IMG/VR virus record: IMGVR_UViG_3300029190_000033
Coordinates: 1-5,495 of that record
Origin: a virus
Taxonomy: Duplodnaviria > Heunggongvirae > Uroviricota > Caudoviricetes
Strand: one strand, 5' to 3'
DNA length: 5,495 nucleotides
The translations under genes were made by a program, and so were the position numbers. Positions 1 to 5,495 of the stretch are shown here, piece after piece. A model generated the notes under the pieces. That model saw nothing but the letters and a program-made list of their open reading frames with translations, did no database searches and was not told the DNA's origin. Positions within the stretch are counted from its first letter, which is position 1. Every line of letters starts with the position of its first letter.

Positions 1-78
1 CCCTTTTTTTCTTTCCTTTAAAAATCAAAGCAAAACTTAAGCTTCGCAACAAAATTTAAGTTTCCTTCAAAAACACTC

Positions 79-107
79 TTGACCAATAGTTAAAGAAATC
101 TTAAATT
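79..107 (+). promoter_or_regulatory. Candidate PL-like early promoter: -35 TTGACC (79-84), 17-nt spacer, -10 TAAATT (102-107)
   Basis: Sigma70-like hexamers with 17-bp spacing, read directly; lies about 190 nt upstream of the N-like gene and upstream of the nut-like site; overlapped by an operator-like palindrome. The -10 matches consensus at only 4/6. Confidence 0.4.
89..106. promoter_or_regulatory. Candidate repressor operator (OL-like), P22 c2-type 18-bp site GTTAAAGAAATCTTAAAT
   Basis: 15/18 match to the P22 operator consensus ATTTAAGATATCTTAAAT as I recall it; right half ATCTTAAAT is exact. Overlaps the spacer and -10 of the candidate promoter. Further ATTTAAG half-sites at 54-60 and 105-111. 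Confidence 0.4.
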
Positions 108-152
108 TAAGTCATCGGCAGGACGCTGGTAGCCAAACGGAACAGATTGGCA

Positions 153-194
153 GGCTCTTTAACATTGATGGGATTGTCCCGCCGAAATGCGGGA
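153..194 (+). promoter_or_regulatory. Candidate nutL: boxA GGCTCTTTAACA (153-164) plus boxB-like hairpin TCCCGC / CGAAAT / GCGGGA (177-194)
   Basis: GCTCTTTAACA matches the boxA consensus (rrn-type GCTCTTTAACAA); a 6-bp stem with 6-nt purine-rich loop follows 12 nt downstream; sits between the candidate promoter and the N-like gene as in lambda and P22. Confidence 0.5.
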
Positions 195-301
195 ACCAAA
201 GAGTAGTTGGCTTTGGGGTGACGTGAAGTGCAGCTGCACGACGGCAACCGGAAGATAAGCACCCGGCGCGTCACCGCCAAAGTCAATCATCGGAGGTCAA
301 C

Positions 302-574
302 ATGACAGTAGTCATTACATATCTGGCTGACGATAACGCCAGAAATCGCCGCAGAGCACGCAGACAGGCTCAACGTGAGCAGGCAATGCAAGAACAGCGA
401 CTGGCGCGAAAAATTGCGCTAAAGCTCTCTGGTTGCGTCAGAGCAGACAAAGCAGCATCACTCGGAAGCCTTTGCTGCAAGGAAGAAGATGAACGCAGTG
501 GAAGTATTTGCCTGCCAAACGTAGCCATTTACGCGGCAGGATACCGGAAATCAAAACAACTGACGGCGAGGTAA
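302..574 (+). CDS. N: N-family transcription antitermination protein (P22 gene 24 / lambda N-like), 90 aa
   Basis: RBS GGAGG 5 nt before ATG 302. N-terminal arginine-rich motif DNARNRRRARRQAQREQ resembles the lambda N motif (AQTRRRERRAEKQAQ); the MTVVITY start resembles P22 gp24 as recalled. First gene after the nut-like site. Confidence 0.85.
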   Translation: MTVVITYLADDNARNRRRARRQAQREQAMQEQRLARKIALKLSGCVRADKAASLGSLCCKEEDERSGSICLPNVAIYAAGYRKSKQLTAR

Positions 575-577
575 GTG

Positions 578-802
578 ATGAATCAGACATACATTCCATC
601 ATGCTTGAGAAATCTGCCAAAGCAGAAAGCAAAGCCCCGCAAGCAAGCCATAAAGGACGCTAAGGCAGAGGTTATTGATCAAGCAATACAATTGCTCAGG
701 GAGGAGTTAAGAAGTGGCAAGCTCGAAGGAATGATGATGCCCTATCAGCGCGGATATCTATCGGCGATTAGTAAGCTGGAAGTATTGAAGAGTGAATTAT
801 GA
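578..802 (+). CDS. Hypothetical protein, 74 aa, charged and helical-looking; ral/17 position
   Basis: ORF with GAGG RBS 6 nt before ATG 578 (track start 575 is GTG with too-short spacing); begins 4 nt after the N stop. No recognisable motif; GC looks lower than N or erf. Confidence 0.6.
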   Translation: MNQTYIPSCLRNLPKQKAKPRKQAIKDAKAEVIDQAIQLLREELRSGKLEGMMMPYQRGYLSAISKLEVLKSEL

Positions 803-864
803 ACTATCTGGAATTTCCGGATGGTTCATTGTTTTGGCAGCAAACCACTTATTTGAGGTGAGAT

Positions 865-1335
865 ATGACAAAATCATGGAGCGTACCTTTTCCTGAATCA
901 GAAACTGAACATGATGGAATGCCTGTTTTCTGGAGATTCCAGGCGACAGTTGAAGAAGATGGAATCAAAATATTCGCACTTCAATATATAGCTTTTCATC
1001 AGACAGAGCATTATGCATGGTTGGTTCCTGCGCATTGGATTGTTAATTTTAAACCAGCACCAAATCGGTGGTTACAGGAATGGAAACAAAAGAGAAATAG
1101 ATATGCAATTAAGAAAGTAGCAAAAAATGCAGAAAGATCTTTTGCATTCCCAACGAAGAAACTTGCCATTGAAAGTTTATTGCGCCGGAAGAAATACCAT
1201 TTGATGAGAATCAAACAAGATTTGGCTGTTGTATCAACTCTTGTTGATGGGATGAAGAATATTGATACATCAACACCAGATATTGAATATAACTTTGAAC
1301 ACAACAAAGAAACAGAAAATTGGGTATTTTATTAG
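865..1335 (+). CDS. Hypothetical protein, 156 aa, AT-rich moron-like gene between N and cIII
   Basis: Clean ORF with GAGG RBS 6 nt before ATG 865. Visibly lower GC than flanking genes (roughly 35-40% versus about 50% by eye). No predicted transmembrane segment, so not SieB-like. Followed by an inverted repeat and an intrinsic terminator. Confidence 0.7.
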   Translation: MTKSWSVPFPESETEHDGMPVFWRFQATVEEDGIKIFALQYIAFHQTEHYAWLVPAHWIVNFKPAPNRWLQEWKQKRNRYAIKKVAKNAERSFAFPTKKLAIESLLRRKKYHLMRIKQDLAVVSTLVDGMKNIDTSTPDIEYNFEHNKETENWVFY

Positions 1336-1349
1336 TACAAATAAGCACT

Positions 1350-1377
1350 GTGTATTCATTCCAACGAGTGAATACAC
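1350..1377. repeat. Perfect 9-bp inverted repeat GTGTATTCA / TGAATACAC with 10-bp spacer
   Basis: Read directly; 15 nt after the stop of the 156-aa ORF; no T-tract follows, so not a canonical intrinsic terminator. Confidence 0.6.
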
Positions 1378-1439
1378 GGAGCAATGTCGCTCGTAACTAA
1401 ACAGGAGCCGACTTGTTCTGATTATTGGAAATCTTCTTT

Positions 1440-1464
1440 GCCCTCCAGTGTGAGGGCCTTTTTA
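1440..1464 (+). terminator. Rho-independent terminator (tL-like): GCCCTC / cagtgt / GAGGGC then CTTTTTAT
   Basis: Perfect 6-bp GC-rich stem, 6-nt loop, immediate T5 run, in noncoding DNA between the moron ORF and cIII. A weaker hairpin CGCTTC / ACTC / GAGGCG + TTTT lies at 1480-1499. Confidence 0.6.
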
Positions 1465-1529
1465 TATGCATACCAATAACGCTTCACTCGAGGCGTTTTC
1501 GTTATGCAATCAAACAGAAGGAGCATCCT

Positions 1530-1700
1530 ATGCAACAGTTCGCTATTGCAGGGGCGGCATCGGTTCGCCCTTTCAACCCGATTTTATCGGTACAGCATTC
1601 ACGAAAAAACATTTTAACCGGAGCAGACTTTAAACAACCAAGAATGAAAAGTTTGCTCGAAAAGCTTTGGGATATTTTGAAACAACAAGGCCGTCCATGA
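1530..1700 (+). CDS. cIII: cIII-like protein (FtsH inhibitor family; P22 c3 / lambda cIII-like), 56 aa
   Basis: RBS AAGGAG 7 nt before ATG 1530. MQQFAIAG resembles the lambda CIII start MQYAIAG, and SLLEKLWDILKQQG resembles the CIII central helix (SLLERITRKL..RLIDILNQPG), as recalled. The track's longer ORF from 1425 would run through the terminator hairpin and is rejected. Confidence 0.7.
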   Translation: MQQFAIAGAASVRPFNPILSVQHSRKNILTGADFKQPRMKSLLEKLWDILKQQGRP

Positions 1701-1855
1701 GTTTTACAGATAACTGGTCAGACGAAGAATTCATTCGTCAGATGAAAGAATTAATCGGTAACGAAGGAGATATTCATGTCACTTGCAACCACAGTGAAGG
1801 AGAGCAAGTTACAGAGACGCATGTACACGCAGAAAGCTCTCTGGTATCGCCATAA
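1697..1855 (+). CDS. Small hypothetical protein, 52 aa, in the kil position (Kil-like candidate)
   Basis: ATG 1697 overlaps the cIII stop (ATGA), with AAGG 6 nt upstream. Overlaps the next candidate ORF by 80 nt in another frame. Kil assignment is by synteny only. Confidence 0.5.
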   Translation: MSFTDNWSDEEFIRQMKELIGNEGDIHVTCNHSEGEQVTETHVHAESSLVSP

Positions 1856-1946
1856 TGGTGACCGCGAAGGAATGCGGGTATGCCTTAATTTGTCCCGAGT
1901 CGAAGTATTAAATCAGCGTTATTTTCTTGGGCCGTGTCCATTCTGA
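1776..1946 (+). CDS. Small hypothetical protein, 56 aa, immediately upstream of erf (Arf-like candidate)
   Basis: Not in the ORF track; found by manual translation: MSLATTVKESKLQRRMYTQKALWYRHNGDREGMRVCLNLSRVEVLNQRYFLGPCPF. Perfect RBS AAGGAG 6 nt before ATG 1776; stop TGA is 10 nt before the erf ATG. Arf assignment is by position only. Confidence 0.4.
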   Translation: MSLATTVKESKLQRRMYTQKALWYRHNGDREGMRVCLNLSRVEVLNQRYFLGPCPF

Positions 1947-1956
1947 GATCAAACAT

Positions 1957-2553
1957 ATGAGCAAAGAATTTTATGCAAGGCTGGCAGCCATTCAGGAGAA
2001 TCTGAACGCGCCAAAGAATCAGTACAACTCATTCGGCAAATATAAATACAGAAGCTGCGAAGACATTCTTGAAGGCGTTAAGCCGTTACTGAATGGCCTG
2101 TTTTTATCAATCAGCGATGAAGTTGTGTTGATTGGTGATCGGTATTACGTGAAAGCAACGGCAACTATTACTGATGGCGAAAACAGTCATACAGCAACCG
2201 CTCTTGCACGAGAGGAAGAAAGCAAGAAAGGAATGGATTCTGCACAAGTTACGGGCGCTACAAGCTCTTATGCACGCAAGTATTGCCTCAATGGTTTGTT
2301 CGGCATTGATGATGCGAAAGATGCAGATACCGACGAGCATAAACATCAGCAGAACGCAGCAGCAAAGCAATCAAAACCATCACCTACACCTGAACAGGTT
2401 CTAAAAGCATTCACTGACGCAGCATTGCAGAAAAACNNNNNNNNNNNNNCGTTCGCCAAAGCGTGGAAGATGCTCGAAGGCACACCGGAGCAGCACAAAG
2501 CGCAGGACGTTTACAACATCAGACGAGACGAATTAGAAGGAGCGGCTGCTTAA
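1957..2553 (+). CDS. erf: Erf-family single-strand annealing recombinase (P22 essential recombination function), 198 aa
   Basis: N-terminal region MSKEFYARLAAIQENLNAPKNQYNSFGKYKYRSCEDILEGVKP...GATSSYARKYCLNGLFGIDDAKDAD closely matches P22 Erf as I recall it. Contains 13 masked bases (2437-2449); frame is maintained across them. Confidence 0.9.
   Translation: MSKEFYARLAAIQENLNAPKNQYNSFGKYKYRSCEDILEGVKPLLNGLFLSISDEVVLIGDRYYVKATATITDGENSHTATALAREEESKKGMDSAQVTGATSSYARKYCLNGLFGIDDAKDADTDEHKHQQNAAAKQSKPSPTPEQVLKAFTDAALQKNXXXXXFAKAWKMLEGTPEQHKAQDVYNIRRDELEGAAA
2437..2449. other. Run of 13 N (masked bases) inside erf
   Basis: Literal n characters; the erf frame continues across them, suggesting 1:1 masking. 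Confidence 0.95.
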
Positions 2554-2936
2554 TGGCACATTCGATTACTGTAAGACTAAACAAGCCCGCAAGAGAGTTT
2601 CAGGCCGGGGAAAATATCGGATTCAACATCCGTGCTGGCGTTCAGTATTACGATCGCCAGACAAAAAAGAAAGAATGGACAAACTACAGCGCCGTTGTAT
2701 TTGCCAAGCCGGGAGCGCAAGCGGATTACTACCGTAGTGTTCTTGTTGAAGGTGGCATTGTGGAAATTACCGGAGAAAACATCATGGTTGATGTTTATCA
2801 GGGGCAAAATGGTCAATCAATCACTCTTGAATTACTGAATGCAAAGATTGGATTTGCAGCTTCAGGAAATGGCCCGCAGCAGCAAAGTAGTAACCAGCAG
2901 AACACTCCTGTATACGACGATTCCATCCCATTCTGA
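2553..2936 (+). CDS. Small protein with SSB-type C-terminal tail (ends PVYDDSIPF), 127 aa; candidate phage single-stranded-DNA-binding protein or SSB mimic
   Basis: ATG overlaps the erf stop (TAATG). C-terminus is a Gly/Gln/Asn/Pro-rich linker ending in DDSIPF, like the acidic tip DDDIPF of bacterial SSB. N-terminal 100 aa has beta-rich character but I cannot confirm an OB fold by eye. Confidence 0.6.
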   Translation: MAHSITVRLNKPAREFQAGENIGFNIRAGVQYYDRQTKKKEWTNYSAVVFAKPGAQADYYRSVLVEGGIVEITGENIMVDVYQGQNGQSITLELLNAKIGFAASGNGPQQQSSNQQNTPVYDDSIPF

Positions 2937-2959
2937 TTTAGAAAAATAAGGATTCCATT

Positions 2960-3256
2960 ATGCCAGCGCCTCTGTATGGTGCGGATGACCCGCGCCGCTG
3001 TTCCGGCAATTCCGTATTGGAGGTGCTGGATAAATTCAGAAAAAACTACGATCGGATAATGTCGCTACCGCAGGAAGCGAAAGAGGAAAAGGAATTTCGC
3101 CACTGTATATGGCTTGCAGAGAAAGAAGAACGCGAGCGAATTTACCAGACATCAATCCGACCATTCCGTAAAGCCACATATACCCACTTCCCTGAATATA
3201 TCGACCCGCGCCTGCGTAATTACCGCTCACGCTATGGCGCTATCAGTAATGACTGA
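2960..3256 (+). CDS. Hypothetical protein, 98 aa; candidate Abc2-like anti-RecBCD protein
   Basis: RBS TAAGGA 7 nt before ATG 2960. Occupies the abc position downstream of erf in the P22 PL operon and is the right size (about 97 aa); sequence identity to Abc2 is not verified. Confidence 0.5.
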   Translation: MPAPLYGADDPRRCSGNSVLEVLDKFRKNYDRIMSLPQEAKEEKEFRHCIWLAEKEERERIYQTSIRPFRKATYTHFPEYIDPRLRNYRSRYGAISND

Positions 3257-3266
3257 GGAATTAACA

Positions 3267-3557
3267 ATGAAAACAATGAAGCTAAACATCGACCTCGGAA
3301 AATACGTTATTACCGGAACAAAACACGATCTGATTCTTAGCGAAAGAGGAATTATCAAAGAAGGCGAGAATGCAGGGAAAGAAACACTAAGTCGTATCGG
3401 TTATTACAGCAAGTTTGAGCATCTGGTTAAAGAGTTATGCAACCGTGAAATCCTGTTATCTCAGGCGCAGACGCTACAGGATATTCAGCAACATATCGAG
3501 ACTTTAGGTGTGTCACTTAGCATGGCTGTTGACCAGTTCATGGAGAGTAAATCATGA
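3267..3557 (+). CDS. Hypothetical protein, 96 aa
   Basis: RBS GAGG 8 nt before ATG 3267, 10 nt after the previous stop; the track's upstream extension from 3114 overlaps the previous gene and is rejected. No recognisable motif. Confidence 0.65.
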
Positions 3558-3721
3558 GAGGACTTGCATACAATCCCGGCATTCTTCCGGCAGAAATGAT
3601 TATTCGCCAACGCGTAAAGCCAATGCCATCGAGAGAGGAATTGCTTAAAAGAAAGAGTTTCGGTTCTGTTAATGACAACAAATATCTGAATGCGATGTTG
3701 CGCAAAGGAGGCAGCCAGTGA
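3554..3721 (+). CDS. Small hypothetical protein, 55 aa
   Basis: Not in the ORF track; found by manual translation: [59 protein letters not shown] start/stop overlap with the upstream gene and GTGA-type overlap with the downstream gene. Confidence 0.45.
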
Positions 3722-4203
3722 CTGGACATGCAACAATCCTCGACATGCGCTGTGGCAGTCGCATGTTCTGGTTCGATAAGAATGACGGCCGGGCGATATT
3801 TAGCGATATCAGAAAGGAAGAGCACACATTGTGTGATGGACGACGGCTGATAATTAGCCCTGACCTGATAGCAGATTTTCGTGCATTACCATTTGCAGAC
3901 GCATCGTTTCCGGTTGTTGTATTCGACCCTCCGCATCTTGAGCGTGTTGGTGATAACGCCTGGATGGGAAAGAAATATGGACGGCTGAATAAAGATACCT
4001 GGCGTGATGATTTGCGGCAGGGATTTAAAGAAGCCTTTCGTGTGTTGCGGCCATACGGCGTTCTGATTTTTAAATGGAATGAAACGCAAATACCTGTTCG
4101 CCAGATATTGGCACTGACCGACAGAAAGCCTGTTATCGGTCAACGAACAGGAAAGGGTGACAAGACCCACTGGATTATTTTTATGAAGGAGGGCAACCAG
4201 TGA
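3718..4203 (+). CDS. Putative SAM-dependent (DNA) methyltransferase-like protein, 161 aa, motif VVVFDPPH
   Basis: Strong RBS AAAGGAGG 6 nt before GTG 3718. Hydrophobic strand followed by DPPH fits the (D/N/S)PP(Y/F/W/H) catalytic motif of N6-adenine/N4-cytosine methyltransferases. Protein is small for a methyltransferase, so the call is tentative. Confidence 0.45.
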
Positions 4204-4969
4204 GCAAGATTGACTATCAGGCACTGCGTGAAAAAGCAGAGAAAGCAACTAAAGGAAGCTACATCGNNNNNNNNNNNNNNNNNNNNNNNNCGGCAATTTA
4301 ACAGGAGTTTTTGTTTGTCAAAAATGGAAAGGAGAGCCAGGTGGCGTGATTGCAGAATGTCACGTTAACTGCCTGGTTGAAACAGATGCTCAGGCTTATG
4401 CAAACGCAGAATTCATAGCAGAGGCTAACCCAGCTACCGTACTGGCACTACTGGATGAACGGGAAAGAAACCAGCAATACATCAAACGCCGTGACCAGGA
4501 GAACGAGGATATTACGCTAACGGTAGGGAAGCTGCGTGTTGAGCTTGAAGCAGCAGAGAACAACCTTATTGATAGTGAATGCCATGTTGCTGAACTGGAA
4601 GAAGCGCTACGCGATAAGCAGGCGTTACTTGAAGCCTCAGAAAAGCGCAACGCAAAATTACAAAGCGAGAATGCATACATCCGCAACCGGTTCAAAGAAC
4701 TGGACCTATTAATGGGGAAAAACATTCTGGTCATGCAGGCTGCCATTATCGAATGGCAGGCAACTGGCGACGCTAAGAGCGGACTAGCATGGATTTATAA
4801 CACACTGTTTGGCCCTGGCGAATTACCGGACGAATCTGAGAAAGATGCTCAGGCCTACTTTAATCGCAAATATGCACCGATTGACGAAAAGCTTATGGCG
4901 CTTCACAAGTGGTTTTGGGAACAAAGTGAAGCCGAGCGCGCCGCTGGCATTGGCATCAAAGGAGAGTGA
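4200..4969 (+). CDS. Ead/Ea22-like phage protein, interrupted by 24 masked bases; coiled-coil C-terminal half
   Basis: RBS AGGAGG 7 nt before GTG 4200. N-terminus [21 protein letters not shown] and downstream AQAYANAEFIAEANPATVLALLDERE are typical of Ead/Ea22-like proteins as recalled. Reading frame before the N-run differs from the frame of the long ORF ending at 4969, so the true start is uncertain (could be 4346). Confidence 0.6.
4267..4290. other. Run of 24 N (masked bases) inside the Ead/Ea22-like gene
   Basis: Literal n characters; the frames on either side are not the same. Confidence 0.95.
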
Positions 4970-4970
4970 T

Positions 4971-5495
4971 ATGAGCACTATCACTAAAGAACGTATCGAA
5001 TTGTTCATTAAATCCCCGCTTGAAAACGGGCTTACCCGTGGCGAACAAATGGAACTGGCACGAATTGCACTGGCATCGCTGGAAGCAGAGCCTGTAAGCC
5101 AAGCTTACAACTTGGCAGAATTAATCGAAGGCATGGAAGTTTCCATTGATGTAAGCACTTGTGATGCTGATTTAGGTAATCGCTATTTCGGCACCGTCAC
5201 CGAGGCGTTAGAACTTGATACAGCCAAGAATGGTTACATCCTCCTGGTTCAGGACGCAGAGCCAAACTTCGATGTAAATGGCAACTCTCCGGTAACTCCG
5301 GATAGCTGGATCTCCCGCTTCGAAGAAATGCCGGATCCGTCTAGCGAAAGGCGCGTGTGTGCGTTCACACCTACCAACCATGAAGATATGCGCTACCGCT
5401 TCGTGCCCGCCTCGCTCTTTAAGACAGTTTGCAGAGACGCGACCCACTGGTTTTATATGCTTCCGCCAGTAGGGCGGGAGGAGGTTGCAGGTGGC
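4971..5495 (+). CDS. Hypothetical protein, 5' part only (175 codons, open to window end)
   Basis: Not in the ORF track; manual translation from ATG 4971 (MSTITKERIELFIKSPLENGLTRGEQMELARIALASLEAEPV...) has no stop through 5495. Perfect RBS AAGGAG 6 nt upstream, 1 nt after the previous stop. Confidence 0.65.
   Translation, partial: MSTITKERIELFIKSPLENGLTRGEQMELARIALASLEAEPVSQAYNLAELIEGMEVSIDVSTCDADLGNRYFGTVTEALELDTAKNGYILLVQDAEPNFDVNGNSPVTPDSWISRFEEMPDPSSERRVCAFTPTNHEDMRYRFVPASLFKTVCRDATHWFYMLPPVGREEVAGG

What the first reader, a model, noticed from the sequence alone, without database searches (positions are those of the whole stretch)
4200..4969. Ead/Ea22-like gene whose reading frame changes across a 24-N masked run
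The ORF from GTG 4200 ([22 protein letters not shown]) and the long ORF ending at 4969 both look like parts of one Ead/Ea22-like protein, yet they are in different frames and the first frame hits TAA at 4299-4301 after the N-run. The 13-N run in erf keeps its frame, which suggests masking is 1:1. So this gene either carries a frameshift or indel hidden by the Ns, or is split into two ORFs.
Basis: seen in the sequence. Interest (0 to 1): 0.4.

Follow-up and report, generated by a model that had tools for sequence, protein, structure and literature searches.

The report
Intact Ea22 gene, miscounted N filler
The apparent frame change is almost certainly an artefact: 24 Ns stand in for 25 real bases, so this is an ordinary, intact 256-residue Ea22-type gene of a lambda-like phage.

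Summary
GTG 4200 opens frame 0, a 24-N run lies at 4267-4290, frame 0 then hits TAA at 4299-4301, and the rest of the gene (to TGA 4969) lies in frame 2. Both pieces match one Pfam Ead_Ea22 domain.

The inference of a frameshift or split gene rests on the Ns counting real bases one for one, and that fails. A human-gut metagenome contig (L130) matches window 131-5495 with one SNP in 5328 unmasked bases. It has 25 nt where the window has 24 N, and 22 nt where the erf run has 13 N. The erf difference is 9, so frame retention there proves nothing.

All 130 Ead relatives examined have 25 nt at this spot and none has 24. All 125 erf relatives have 22 nt. All 115 complete homologous ORFs read through this spot in one frame. 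Inserting L130's 25 nt gives one 771-nt ORF, 96% identical in protein to the Ea22 of Stx phage P32 (933W type).

Verdict: the N-run is a placeholder of unreliable length and the gene is ordinary and intact. About 7% remains for a genuine 1-nt deletion or sequencing error in the unseen source.

The parts
4200..4969 (+). Ea22-type (Ead/Ea22-like) gene. It spans 770 window positions, but the real length is inferred to be 771 nt (256 codons plus stop).
   Evidence: Filling the N-run with L130's 25 nt gives one 771-nt ORF with the same protein as the 256-aa gene of L130 (4079-4849); the two window pieces are 100% identical to it. It is 96% identical to the Ea22 protein of Stx phage vB_EcoS_P32.
4267..4290 (.). 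24-N run that replaces 25 real bases. In the near-identical contigs these are TAGGTCGTACATCTGTTAATCAGCA, which with the flanking G4266 and C4291 encode VGRTSVNQH (residues 23-31).
   Evidence: The stretch is 25 nt in 130 of 130 relatives. A scan with fixed 24-nt spacing found nothing in viral contigs or genome contigs.
4299..4301 (+). TAA that appears in frame with GTG 4200 only because the N-run is one position short. In the true frame it is read as part of AAT-TTA-ACA (N-L-T).
4250..4252 (+). TAA that closes the downstream frame (frame 2) upstream of the N-run. It shows that the C-terminal frame cannot begin before the run.
4186..4203 (+). Translation start of the gene: Shine-Dalgarno AAGGAGG (4186-4192), then GTG 4200 overlapping the TGA stop (4201-4203) of the upstream methyltransferase gene (GTGA coupling junction).
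   Evidence: The same junction, AAAGGAGGCAACCAGTGA, precedes the Ead gene in relatives that have different upstream genes.
4203..4627 (+). Stretch matching Pfam PF13935 Ead_Ea22 (residues 2-143 of the reconstructed protein). The N-run lies inside this domain.
   Evidence: E=4.1e-36, 125 bits, cutoff 27, for the intact L130 protein.
4424..4567 (+). Segment shared with phage lambda Ea22: residues 76-123 match lambda residues 32-79, 79% identity over 48 aa.
4430..4765 (+). Two long predicted helices (residues 78-125 and 130-189), read as the central coiled-coil region.
   Evidence: single-sequence AlphaFold2, block mean pLDDT mostly 74-88 through about residue 160 and 65-75 beyond. It is consistent with the coiled-coil region described for Ea22 in PMC7093339 and PMC10834534.
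4772..4966 (+). C-terminal module ending in the K-G-E tripeptide. It is of the 933W type and differs from the lambda C-terminal domain.
   Evidence: the +GE motif. One search found no match to any solved Ea22 chain.
2437..2449 (.). The window's other N-run (13 N, inside erf), used as a control. It replaces 22 real bases.
   Evidence: 22 nt in 125 of 125 relatives.

Best explanation
The gene is one intact Ea22-type gene of 771 nt (256 codons). The 24-N run is a filler whose length does not equal the number of bases it replaces, most likely an assembly or scaffold gap of estimated size. It stands for 25 nt, so every coordinate after it is shifted by one. That shift makes the true reading frame look like a different frame and brings an out-of-frame TAA into apparent register.

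Shown here: the gene starts at GTG 4200, 8 nt after an AAGGAGG Shine-Dalgarno sequence, and overlaps the stop of the upstream methyltransferase gene (GTGA). It reads through V-G-R-T-S-V-N-Q-H into GNLTGVFVCQKW... and ends at TGA 4969.

Inferred from the literature on lambda and Stx-phage Ea22: the product is an early-left-operon (exo-xis region) protein with an N-terminal domain, a central coiled coil that makes it oligomeric, and an exchangeable C-terminal domain. It biases infection toward lysogeny through an unknown host partner.
For: 1. L130 (an ENA human-gut metagenome contig) equals window 131-5495 with one SNP (1203 G/A) and no indel over 5328 unmasked bases. The only length differences fall exactly at the two N-runs: 22 nt against 13 N, and 25 nt against 24 N.
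2. Three further independent assemblies (L131, L132, L133) carry the same 25 nt. Gene callers found a 256-aa Ead_Ea22 product in L130, L131 and L132.
3. The gap is 25 nt in 130 of 130 Ead relatives from E. coli genomes, IMG/VR and metagenomes. Fixed 24-nt spacing matches nothing.
4. The erf gap is 22 nt in 125 of 125 relatives, so the other N-run is also the wrong length.
5. All 115 complete homologous ORFs read through the site in one frame, 72-391 aa. RefSeq annotates single CDSs.
6. The two window pieces match consecutive parts of one Pfam domain, positions 1-19 and 36-128. They align to residues 1-22 and 32-256 of the intact protein at 100% identity, leaving exactly 9 residues.
7. My own arithmetic: if the masks were placed independently of real indels, two indels both falling within 37 of 5495 positions has probability of about 4.5e-5. 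The length mismatch is therefore tied to the Ns themselves.
8. The 25-nt allele of the near-identical contigs has no homopolymer longer than 2, so a homopolymer miscall is not a likely source of a real -1.
Against: The window's own source record and reads could not be found, so the 24 hidden positions were never seen directly. If the Ns are in fact a one-for-one mask, the source would carry a real 1-nt deletion here and a real 9-nt deletion in erf. I do not know how the Ns were produced. 'Scaffold gap of estimated size' is an inference from general knowledge of assemblers, not a tool result.
Confidence: 0.9

Rival explanations
1. The source genome really lacks one base inside the masked stretch, through mutation or a sequencing or assembly error. 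Ea22 would then be a frameshifted pseudogene or a split gene: a 33-residue N-terminal peptide, plus possibly a 207-residue product restarted at GTG 4346.
For: Taken literally, the window gives this reading. AAGGAG at 4329-4334 lies 11 nt before GTG 4346, so a restart is conceivable. Decayed copies do occur among relatives: L004 has an altered start codon (GTT) and a 96-99 aa remnant. Lambda Ea22 naturally lacks most of the N-terminal domain (PMC7093339), so a truncated product need not be dead.
Against: None of 130 relatives has 24 nt. No gene with the 207-aa product is on record among 153 billion gene positions. The window's other N-run is also the wrong length, by 9, so N counts in this window are demonstrably unreliable. 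This reading needs two real indels, both coinciding with the only two masked stretches, in a sequence that otherwise differs by one SNP from L130.
Confidence: 0.07
2. The gene is expressed by programmed +1/-1 ribosomal frameshifting or by transcriptional slippage across the masked stretch.
For: Only that two frames of one domain meet there.
Against: No relative needs any recoding, since all are continuous in one frame. The corresponding 25 nt in relatives (TAGGTCGTACATCTGTTAATCAGCA and variants) contain no slippery heptamer and no homopolymer run. No Rfam element was found in the window.
Confidence: 0.01
3. Homologues are naturally two separate adjacent ORFs, a small N-terminal gene and a larger C-terminal gene.
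For: None found.
Against: All 115 complete homologues are single ORFs through this point. RefSeq and GenBank annotate single CDSs. The Pfam domain spans the junction in the intact proteins, residues 2-143.
Confidence: 0.01

Closest known systems
Ea22 of Shiga-toxin phages 933W / vB_EcoS_P32 / P22-Stx (exo-xis region protein; Dydecka et al. 2020, PMC7093339)
   Same: The reconstructed protein is 96% identical to the annotated 'Ea22 protein' of vB_EcoS_P32 over essentially its full length, 256 against 257 aa. It has the same N-terminal domain, coiled-coil region, C-terminal module and terminal K/R-G-E motif. It occupies the same kind of position in the early-left operon. The DNA is about 93% identical to 933W, VT2-Sakai and Min27.
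   Different: The upstream neighbour here is a class I SAM-dependent methyltransferase, and the recombination module is erf/ssb-like/abc. In P32 the neighbours are a TraR/DksA zinc-finger gene and exo. Within the gene there are only a few substitutions.
Phage lambda Ea22 (NP_040612, 182 aa; C-terminal domain NMR structure, Goddard et al. 2024, PMC10834534)
   Same: It belongs to the same Pfam family. There is 79% identity over 48 residues at the start of the coiled coil. The position between the recombination genes and xis/int is the same. A pro-lysogenic role is reported for both the lambda and Stx-phage versions (PMC7093339).
   Different: Lambda lacks most of the N-terminal domain, which is the part that contains the N-run here. 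Its C-terminal domain is unrelated: there is no match outside residues 76-123 and no PDB sequence hit to any Ea22 chain.
Assembly or scaffold gaps of estimated size (runs of N that do not count bases)
   Same: Two short N-runs (13 and 24) replace 22 and 25 bases, with perfectly matching flanks and no other difference from a near-identical contig. Both replaced stretches contain sites that vary among related prophages. Such sites are where assembly graphs tend to break; that link is my inference.
   Different: The origin of the Ns in this window is undocumented. I could not retrieve the source record or any gap annotation.

Membership tests
Ead/Ea22-like protein family (Pfam PF13935) | Significant match to the family profile above the curated cutoff | tested here: met
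   The intact near-identical protein (L130) scores 125 bits, E=4.1e-36, against a cutoff of 27. Window piece 1 scores 27.9 bits (profile positions 1-19). Window piece 2 scores 86.7 bits (profile positions 36-128).
Ead/Ea22-like protein family (Pfam PF13935) | One continuous polypeptide spanning the N-terminal domain | tested here: inconclusive
   This is continuous in 115 of 115 complete relatives and in four contigs that are identical to the window apart from one SNP. In the window itself the deciding bases are Ns.
Ea22 of lambdoid phages (exo-xis region gene) | Located in the early-left (pL) operon, downstream of the recombination genes and upstream of xis/int | tested here: met
   The window gene order is N-like..., erf, ssb-like, anti-RecBCD, DUF5405, DUF2737, methyltransferase, Ea22. 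In the related prophage L008 the same block continues to torI (xis-like). The window itself does not reach xis/int.
Ea22 of lambdoid phages (exo-xis region gene) | Three-part architecture (N-terminal domain, central coiled coil, variable C-terminal domain) ending in the +GE motif | tested here: met
   Long helices are predicted at residues 78-125 and 130-189 (moderate confidence, single sequence). The protein ends in K-G-E. The motif and architecture are described in PMC7093339. C-termini are mosaic among relatives, 72-391 aa.
Ea22 of lambdoid phages (exo-xis region gene) | Pro-lysogenic effect on phage development; tetrameric protein | not testable with these tools
   Known only from experiments on lambda and Stx phages (PMC7093339, PMC10834534).
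Frameshifted pseudogene or programmed frameshift gene | The change of frame is located in determined bases | tested here: not met
   The frame change can only lie between 4253 and 4298. All determined bases there match L130 exactly. The only discrepancy is the count of Ns, 24 against 25.
Frameshifted pseudogene or programmed frameshift gene | The frame change or a recoding signal is shared by relatives | tested here: not met
   None of 130 relatives has 24-nt spacing. None of 115 has a split ORF. There is no slippery sequence in the 25-nt alleles.

The most novel reading that the evidence does not exclude
The source phage carries a real 1-nt deletion. It would then make no full-length Ea22, but instead a 207-residue N-terminally truncated form restarted at GTG 4346 (AAGGAG lies 11 nt upstream). 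That form would resemble the naturally N-truncated lambda Ea22 and would be a natural experiment on whether the N-terminal domain is dispensable.
Probability: 0.06. Interest if true: 0.15.

Novelty: not a real feature. Interest (0 to 1): 0.04.

Why it matters
Biologically it matters little. Ea22-type genes are common in lambdoid and Stx prophages, and this one is a near-copy of the 933W-type gene. The practical value is methodological. In this data the lengths of N-runs cannot be used to reason about reading frames. An N-run that happens to 'keep' the frame, such as the erf run (13 N for 22 nt), is no proof of base-for-base masking. Treating such runs as exact would produce false pseudogene, frameshift or split-gene calls.

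Tried and rejected
- **Finding the source to read the hidden bases.** The flanks with a fixed 24-N spacing found nothing in genome contigs or viral contigs. A 200-nt exact pattern found nothing in viral contigs. A 73-nt exact pattern found nothing in genome contigs. A 71-nt pattern carrying the window-specific G1203 in metagenome contigs found 3 loci, none of them the source.
- **Exact-protein look-ups.** The methyltransferase and the 156-aa ORF returned near-identical contigs but not the source. The 207-aa product that a genuinely split gene would give is not on record.
- **Natural 24-nt or 13-nt alleles.** I looked for a natural 24-nt Ead allele and a natural 13-nt erf allele. None was found.
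- **Programmed frameshifting.** Rejected. Relatives need none, there is no slippery motif, and Rfam finds nothing in the window.
- **Solved structures.** The PDB sequence search gave only spurious helical-repeat and coiled-coil hits.
- **Structure prediction.** Single-sequence AlphaFold2 of the C-terminal 225 residues gave mean pLDDT 64.8. That is enough to support long central helices but too weak for a fold search of the terminal domains, so no fold search was run.
- **Large protein-database searches.** I did not use them, because the DNA evidence was already decisive.

Full report
**What is in the window**

The window is the early-left region of a lambda-like (lambdoid) prophage. In order it carries:
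- a pL-like promoter,
- an N-like gene (302-574),
- several small ORFs,
- erf (ATG 1957 to 2553),
- an ssb-like gene,
- an anti-RecBCD gene (2960-3256),
- DUF5405 and DUF2737 genes,
- a class I SAM-dependent methyltransferase (3718-4203),
- the Ead/Ea22-like gene (4200-4969),
- the start of another gene.

There are two N-runs: 2437-2449 (13 N, inside erf) and 4267-4290 (24 N, inside the Ead/Ea22-like gene).

**Checking the observation**

The description is accurate.
- GTG 4200 follows an AAGGAGG at 4186-4192 and overlaps the methyltransferase stop (GTGA).
- Its frame runs [22 protein letters not shown] into the Ns and, counted literally, ends at TAA 4299-4301.
- The frame that carries the rest of the protein (GNLTGVFVCQKW... 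to TGA 4969) is a different one. It is closed upstream by TAA 4250-4252.
- Both pieces hit the same Pfam domain, PF13935 Ead_Ea22, at consecutive positions. Residues 1-22 match profile positions 1-19 (E=3.9e-6). The downstream piece matches positions 36-128 (E=2.7e-24).

So two parts of one domain really do sit in two apparent frames, separated by the N-run.

**What relatives show**

Megablast against complete E. coli genomes gave thousands of related prophage copies. The best full-length matches spanned 1253 bases for 1252 query positions. In seven fetched E. coli loci the distance between conserved anchors either side of the N-run is 69 nt, against 68 in the window. That means 25 nt where the window has 24 N. 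RefSeq annotates a single ead/Ea22-like CDS across the spot.

A scan of IMG/VR with the two flanks and a free spacer of 15-40 nt gave at least 120 loci, and the spacer was 25 nt in every one. In all, 130 of 130 instances have 25 nt. The same flanks with a fixed 24-nt spacer match nothing in viral contigs or genome contigs. All 115 homologous ORFs that are complete in the fetched loci read through this point in one frame. Their lengths run from 72 to 391 aa because the C-termini are mosaic.

**The near-identical contigs**

An exact-protein look-up with the window's methyltransferase found four metagenome contigs from four assemblies.

L130 (ERZ914930, human gut, 5974 nt) aligns with window 131-5495. 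Over the 5328 unmasked bases there is one substitution (1203 G/A) and no indel. The only length differences are exactly at the two N-runs:

| N-run | Ns in window | Bases in L130 | L130 sequence |
|---|---|---|---|
| erf, 2437-2449 | 13 | 22 | ACCGTGGAAGAGCTTAAACAGG |
| Ead, 4267-4290 | 24 | 25 | TAGGTCGTACATCTGTTAATCAGCA |

L131, L132 and L133 carry the same 25 nt. In L130, L131 and L132 a single 256-aa Ead_Ea22 product was called. Putting the 25 nt into the window gives a 771-nt ORF with no stop. The window's two pieces align at 100% identity to residues 1-22 and 32-256 of that protein, leaving exactly nine residues, VGRTSVNQH.

**The erf control**

A further IMG/VR scan shows that 125 of 125 erf relatives have 22 nt at that place. 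The difference is 9, so the frame is kept whatever the truth is.

Both N-runs in this window therefore disagree in length with every known relative, including contigs that are otherwise identical. If the Ns were an exact mask laid down independently of any indels, two real indels both landing inside 37 of 5495 positions would have a probability of about 4.5e-5 (my arithmetic). The mismatch is therefore a property of the Ns.

The simplest reading is that they are gap fillers of estimated length, as scaffolders produce. Both replaced stretches contain sites that vary between related prophages, which is where assembly graphs tend to break. This last step is inference, because I could not find the source record.

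**What the gene is and how it probably works**

The reconstructed protein is 96% identical to the annotated Ea22 protein of Stx phage vB_EcoS_P32, which is reported as nearly identical to 933W Ea22. It shares 79% identity over 48 residues (76-123) with lambda Ea22, and nothing outside that segment.

This fits the published picture (PMC7093339, PMC10834534):
- an N-terminal domain that is conserved among Stx phages but truncated in lambda,
- a central coiled coil (full-length lambda Ea22 is tetrameric),
- an exchangeable C-terminal domain,
- a terminal K/R-G-E motif, here KGE.

A single-sequence AlphaFold2 model supports two long central helices, at residues 78-125 and 130-189, with moderate confidence. 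It is too weak for the end domains.

Shown here: family membership, gene position, a start coupled to the upstream gene, and helical architecture. Inferred from the literature: an early pL-transcribed protein that favours lysogeny through an unknown host partner.

**Rivals**

A real 1-nt deletion or base-calling error in the source cannot be excluded without the reads. It would leave a 33-codon stub and possibly a 207-aa restart product from GTG 4346, which has AAGGAG 11 nt upstream. No such product is on record. This reading also needs a second real indel under the other N-run. The 25-nt allele has no homopolymer longer than 2 that would invite a miscall. I give it about 7%.

Programmed frameshifting and a naturally bipartite gene are each about 1% or less. 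No relative needs recoding or is split, there is no slippery motif, and Rfam finds nothing.

**Verdict**

The frameshift or split-gene interpretation is not supported. The feature is an artefact of an N-run that is one position too short, laid over an ordinary, already well-known phage gene. Interest is very low, apart from the practical caution that N-run lengths in these windows must not be used for frame arguments.

Noticed in passing
window 2437-2449 (erf): The 13-N run inside erf replaces 22 nt (ACCGTGGAAGAGCTTAAACAGG) in the near-identical contig L130 and in 125 of 125 relatives. As written, the window's erf looks three codons short (198 against 201 aa). This is probably the same placeholder artefact.
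   Followed up: yes
window 3705-3721 and 4186-4203; L005-L008 junctions: The methyltransferase gene is bounded on both sides by nearly the same junction: AAGGAGG, 3-4 nt, then CCAGTGA, where the GTG start overlaps the TGA stop. The same AAAGGAGGCAACCAGTGA precedes the Ead gene in relatives whose upstream gene is DUF2737 or an unrelated hypothetical gene. It looks like a conserved module-boundary sequence that allows cassettes such as the methyltransferase to be swapped in and out.
   Followed up: partly
window 30-193 and 302-574: There is a pL-like promoter, TTGACC-17-TAAATT, at 79-107, set among repeated TTAAG/CTTAA-containing operator-like sequences (36-41, 56-60, 100-111). A stem-loop CCCGC-CGAAAT-GCGGG at 178-193 could be a nutL boxB. 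It lies upstream of an N-like gene (PF25694 N_peptide in the identical L130 product).
   Followed up: no
window 865-1335 and 1440-1497: A 156-aa ORF with no Pfam family is conserved exactly on 8 contigs from different samples. It is followed by two terminator-like hairpins (1440-1457 plus T-run, and 1478-1497).
   Followed up: no
L004 1609-1899 (E. coli 2013C-3342): This is a genuinely decayed relative. The usual GTG start reads GTT and the ORF stops after about 96-99 codons. Real truncations of this gene do exist elsewhere, but not at the position of the window's N-run.
   Followed up: partly
relatives: Ead/Ea22-like ORFs that share this N-terminus range from 72 to 391 aa, with recurrent size classes of 182, 199, 256 and 315 aa. 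This indicates extensive swapping of coiled-coil and C-terminal modules behind a conserved N-terminal domain.
   Followed up: no
window 4971-5495: The gene after Ea22 is 175 aa in L130 (4851-5378) and has no Pfam hit on record. In relatives this slot holds unrelated genes: small hypothetical proteins, or a DUF551 protein directly.
   Followed up: no
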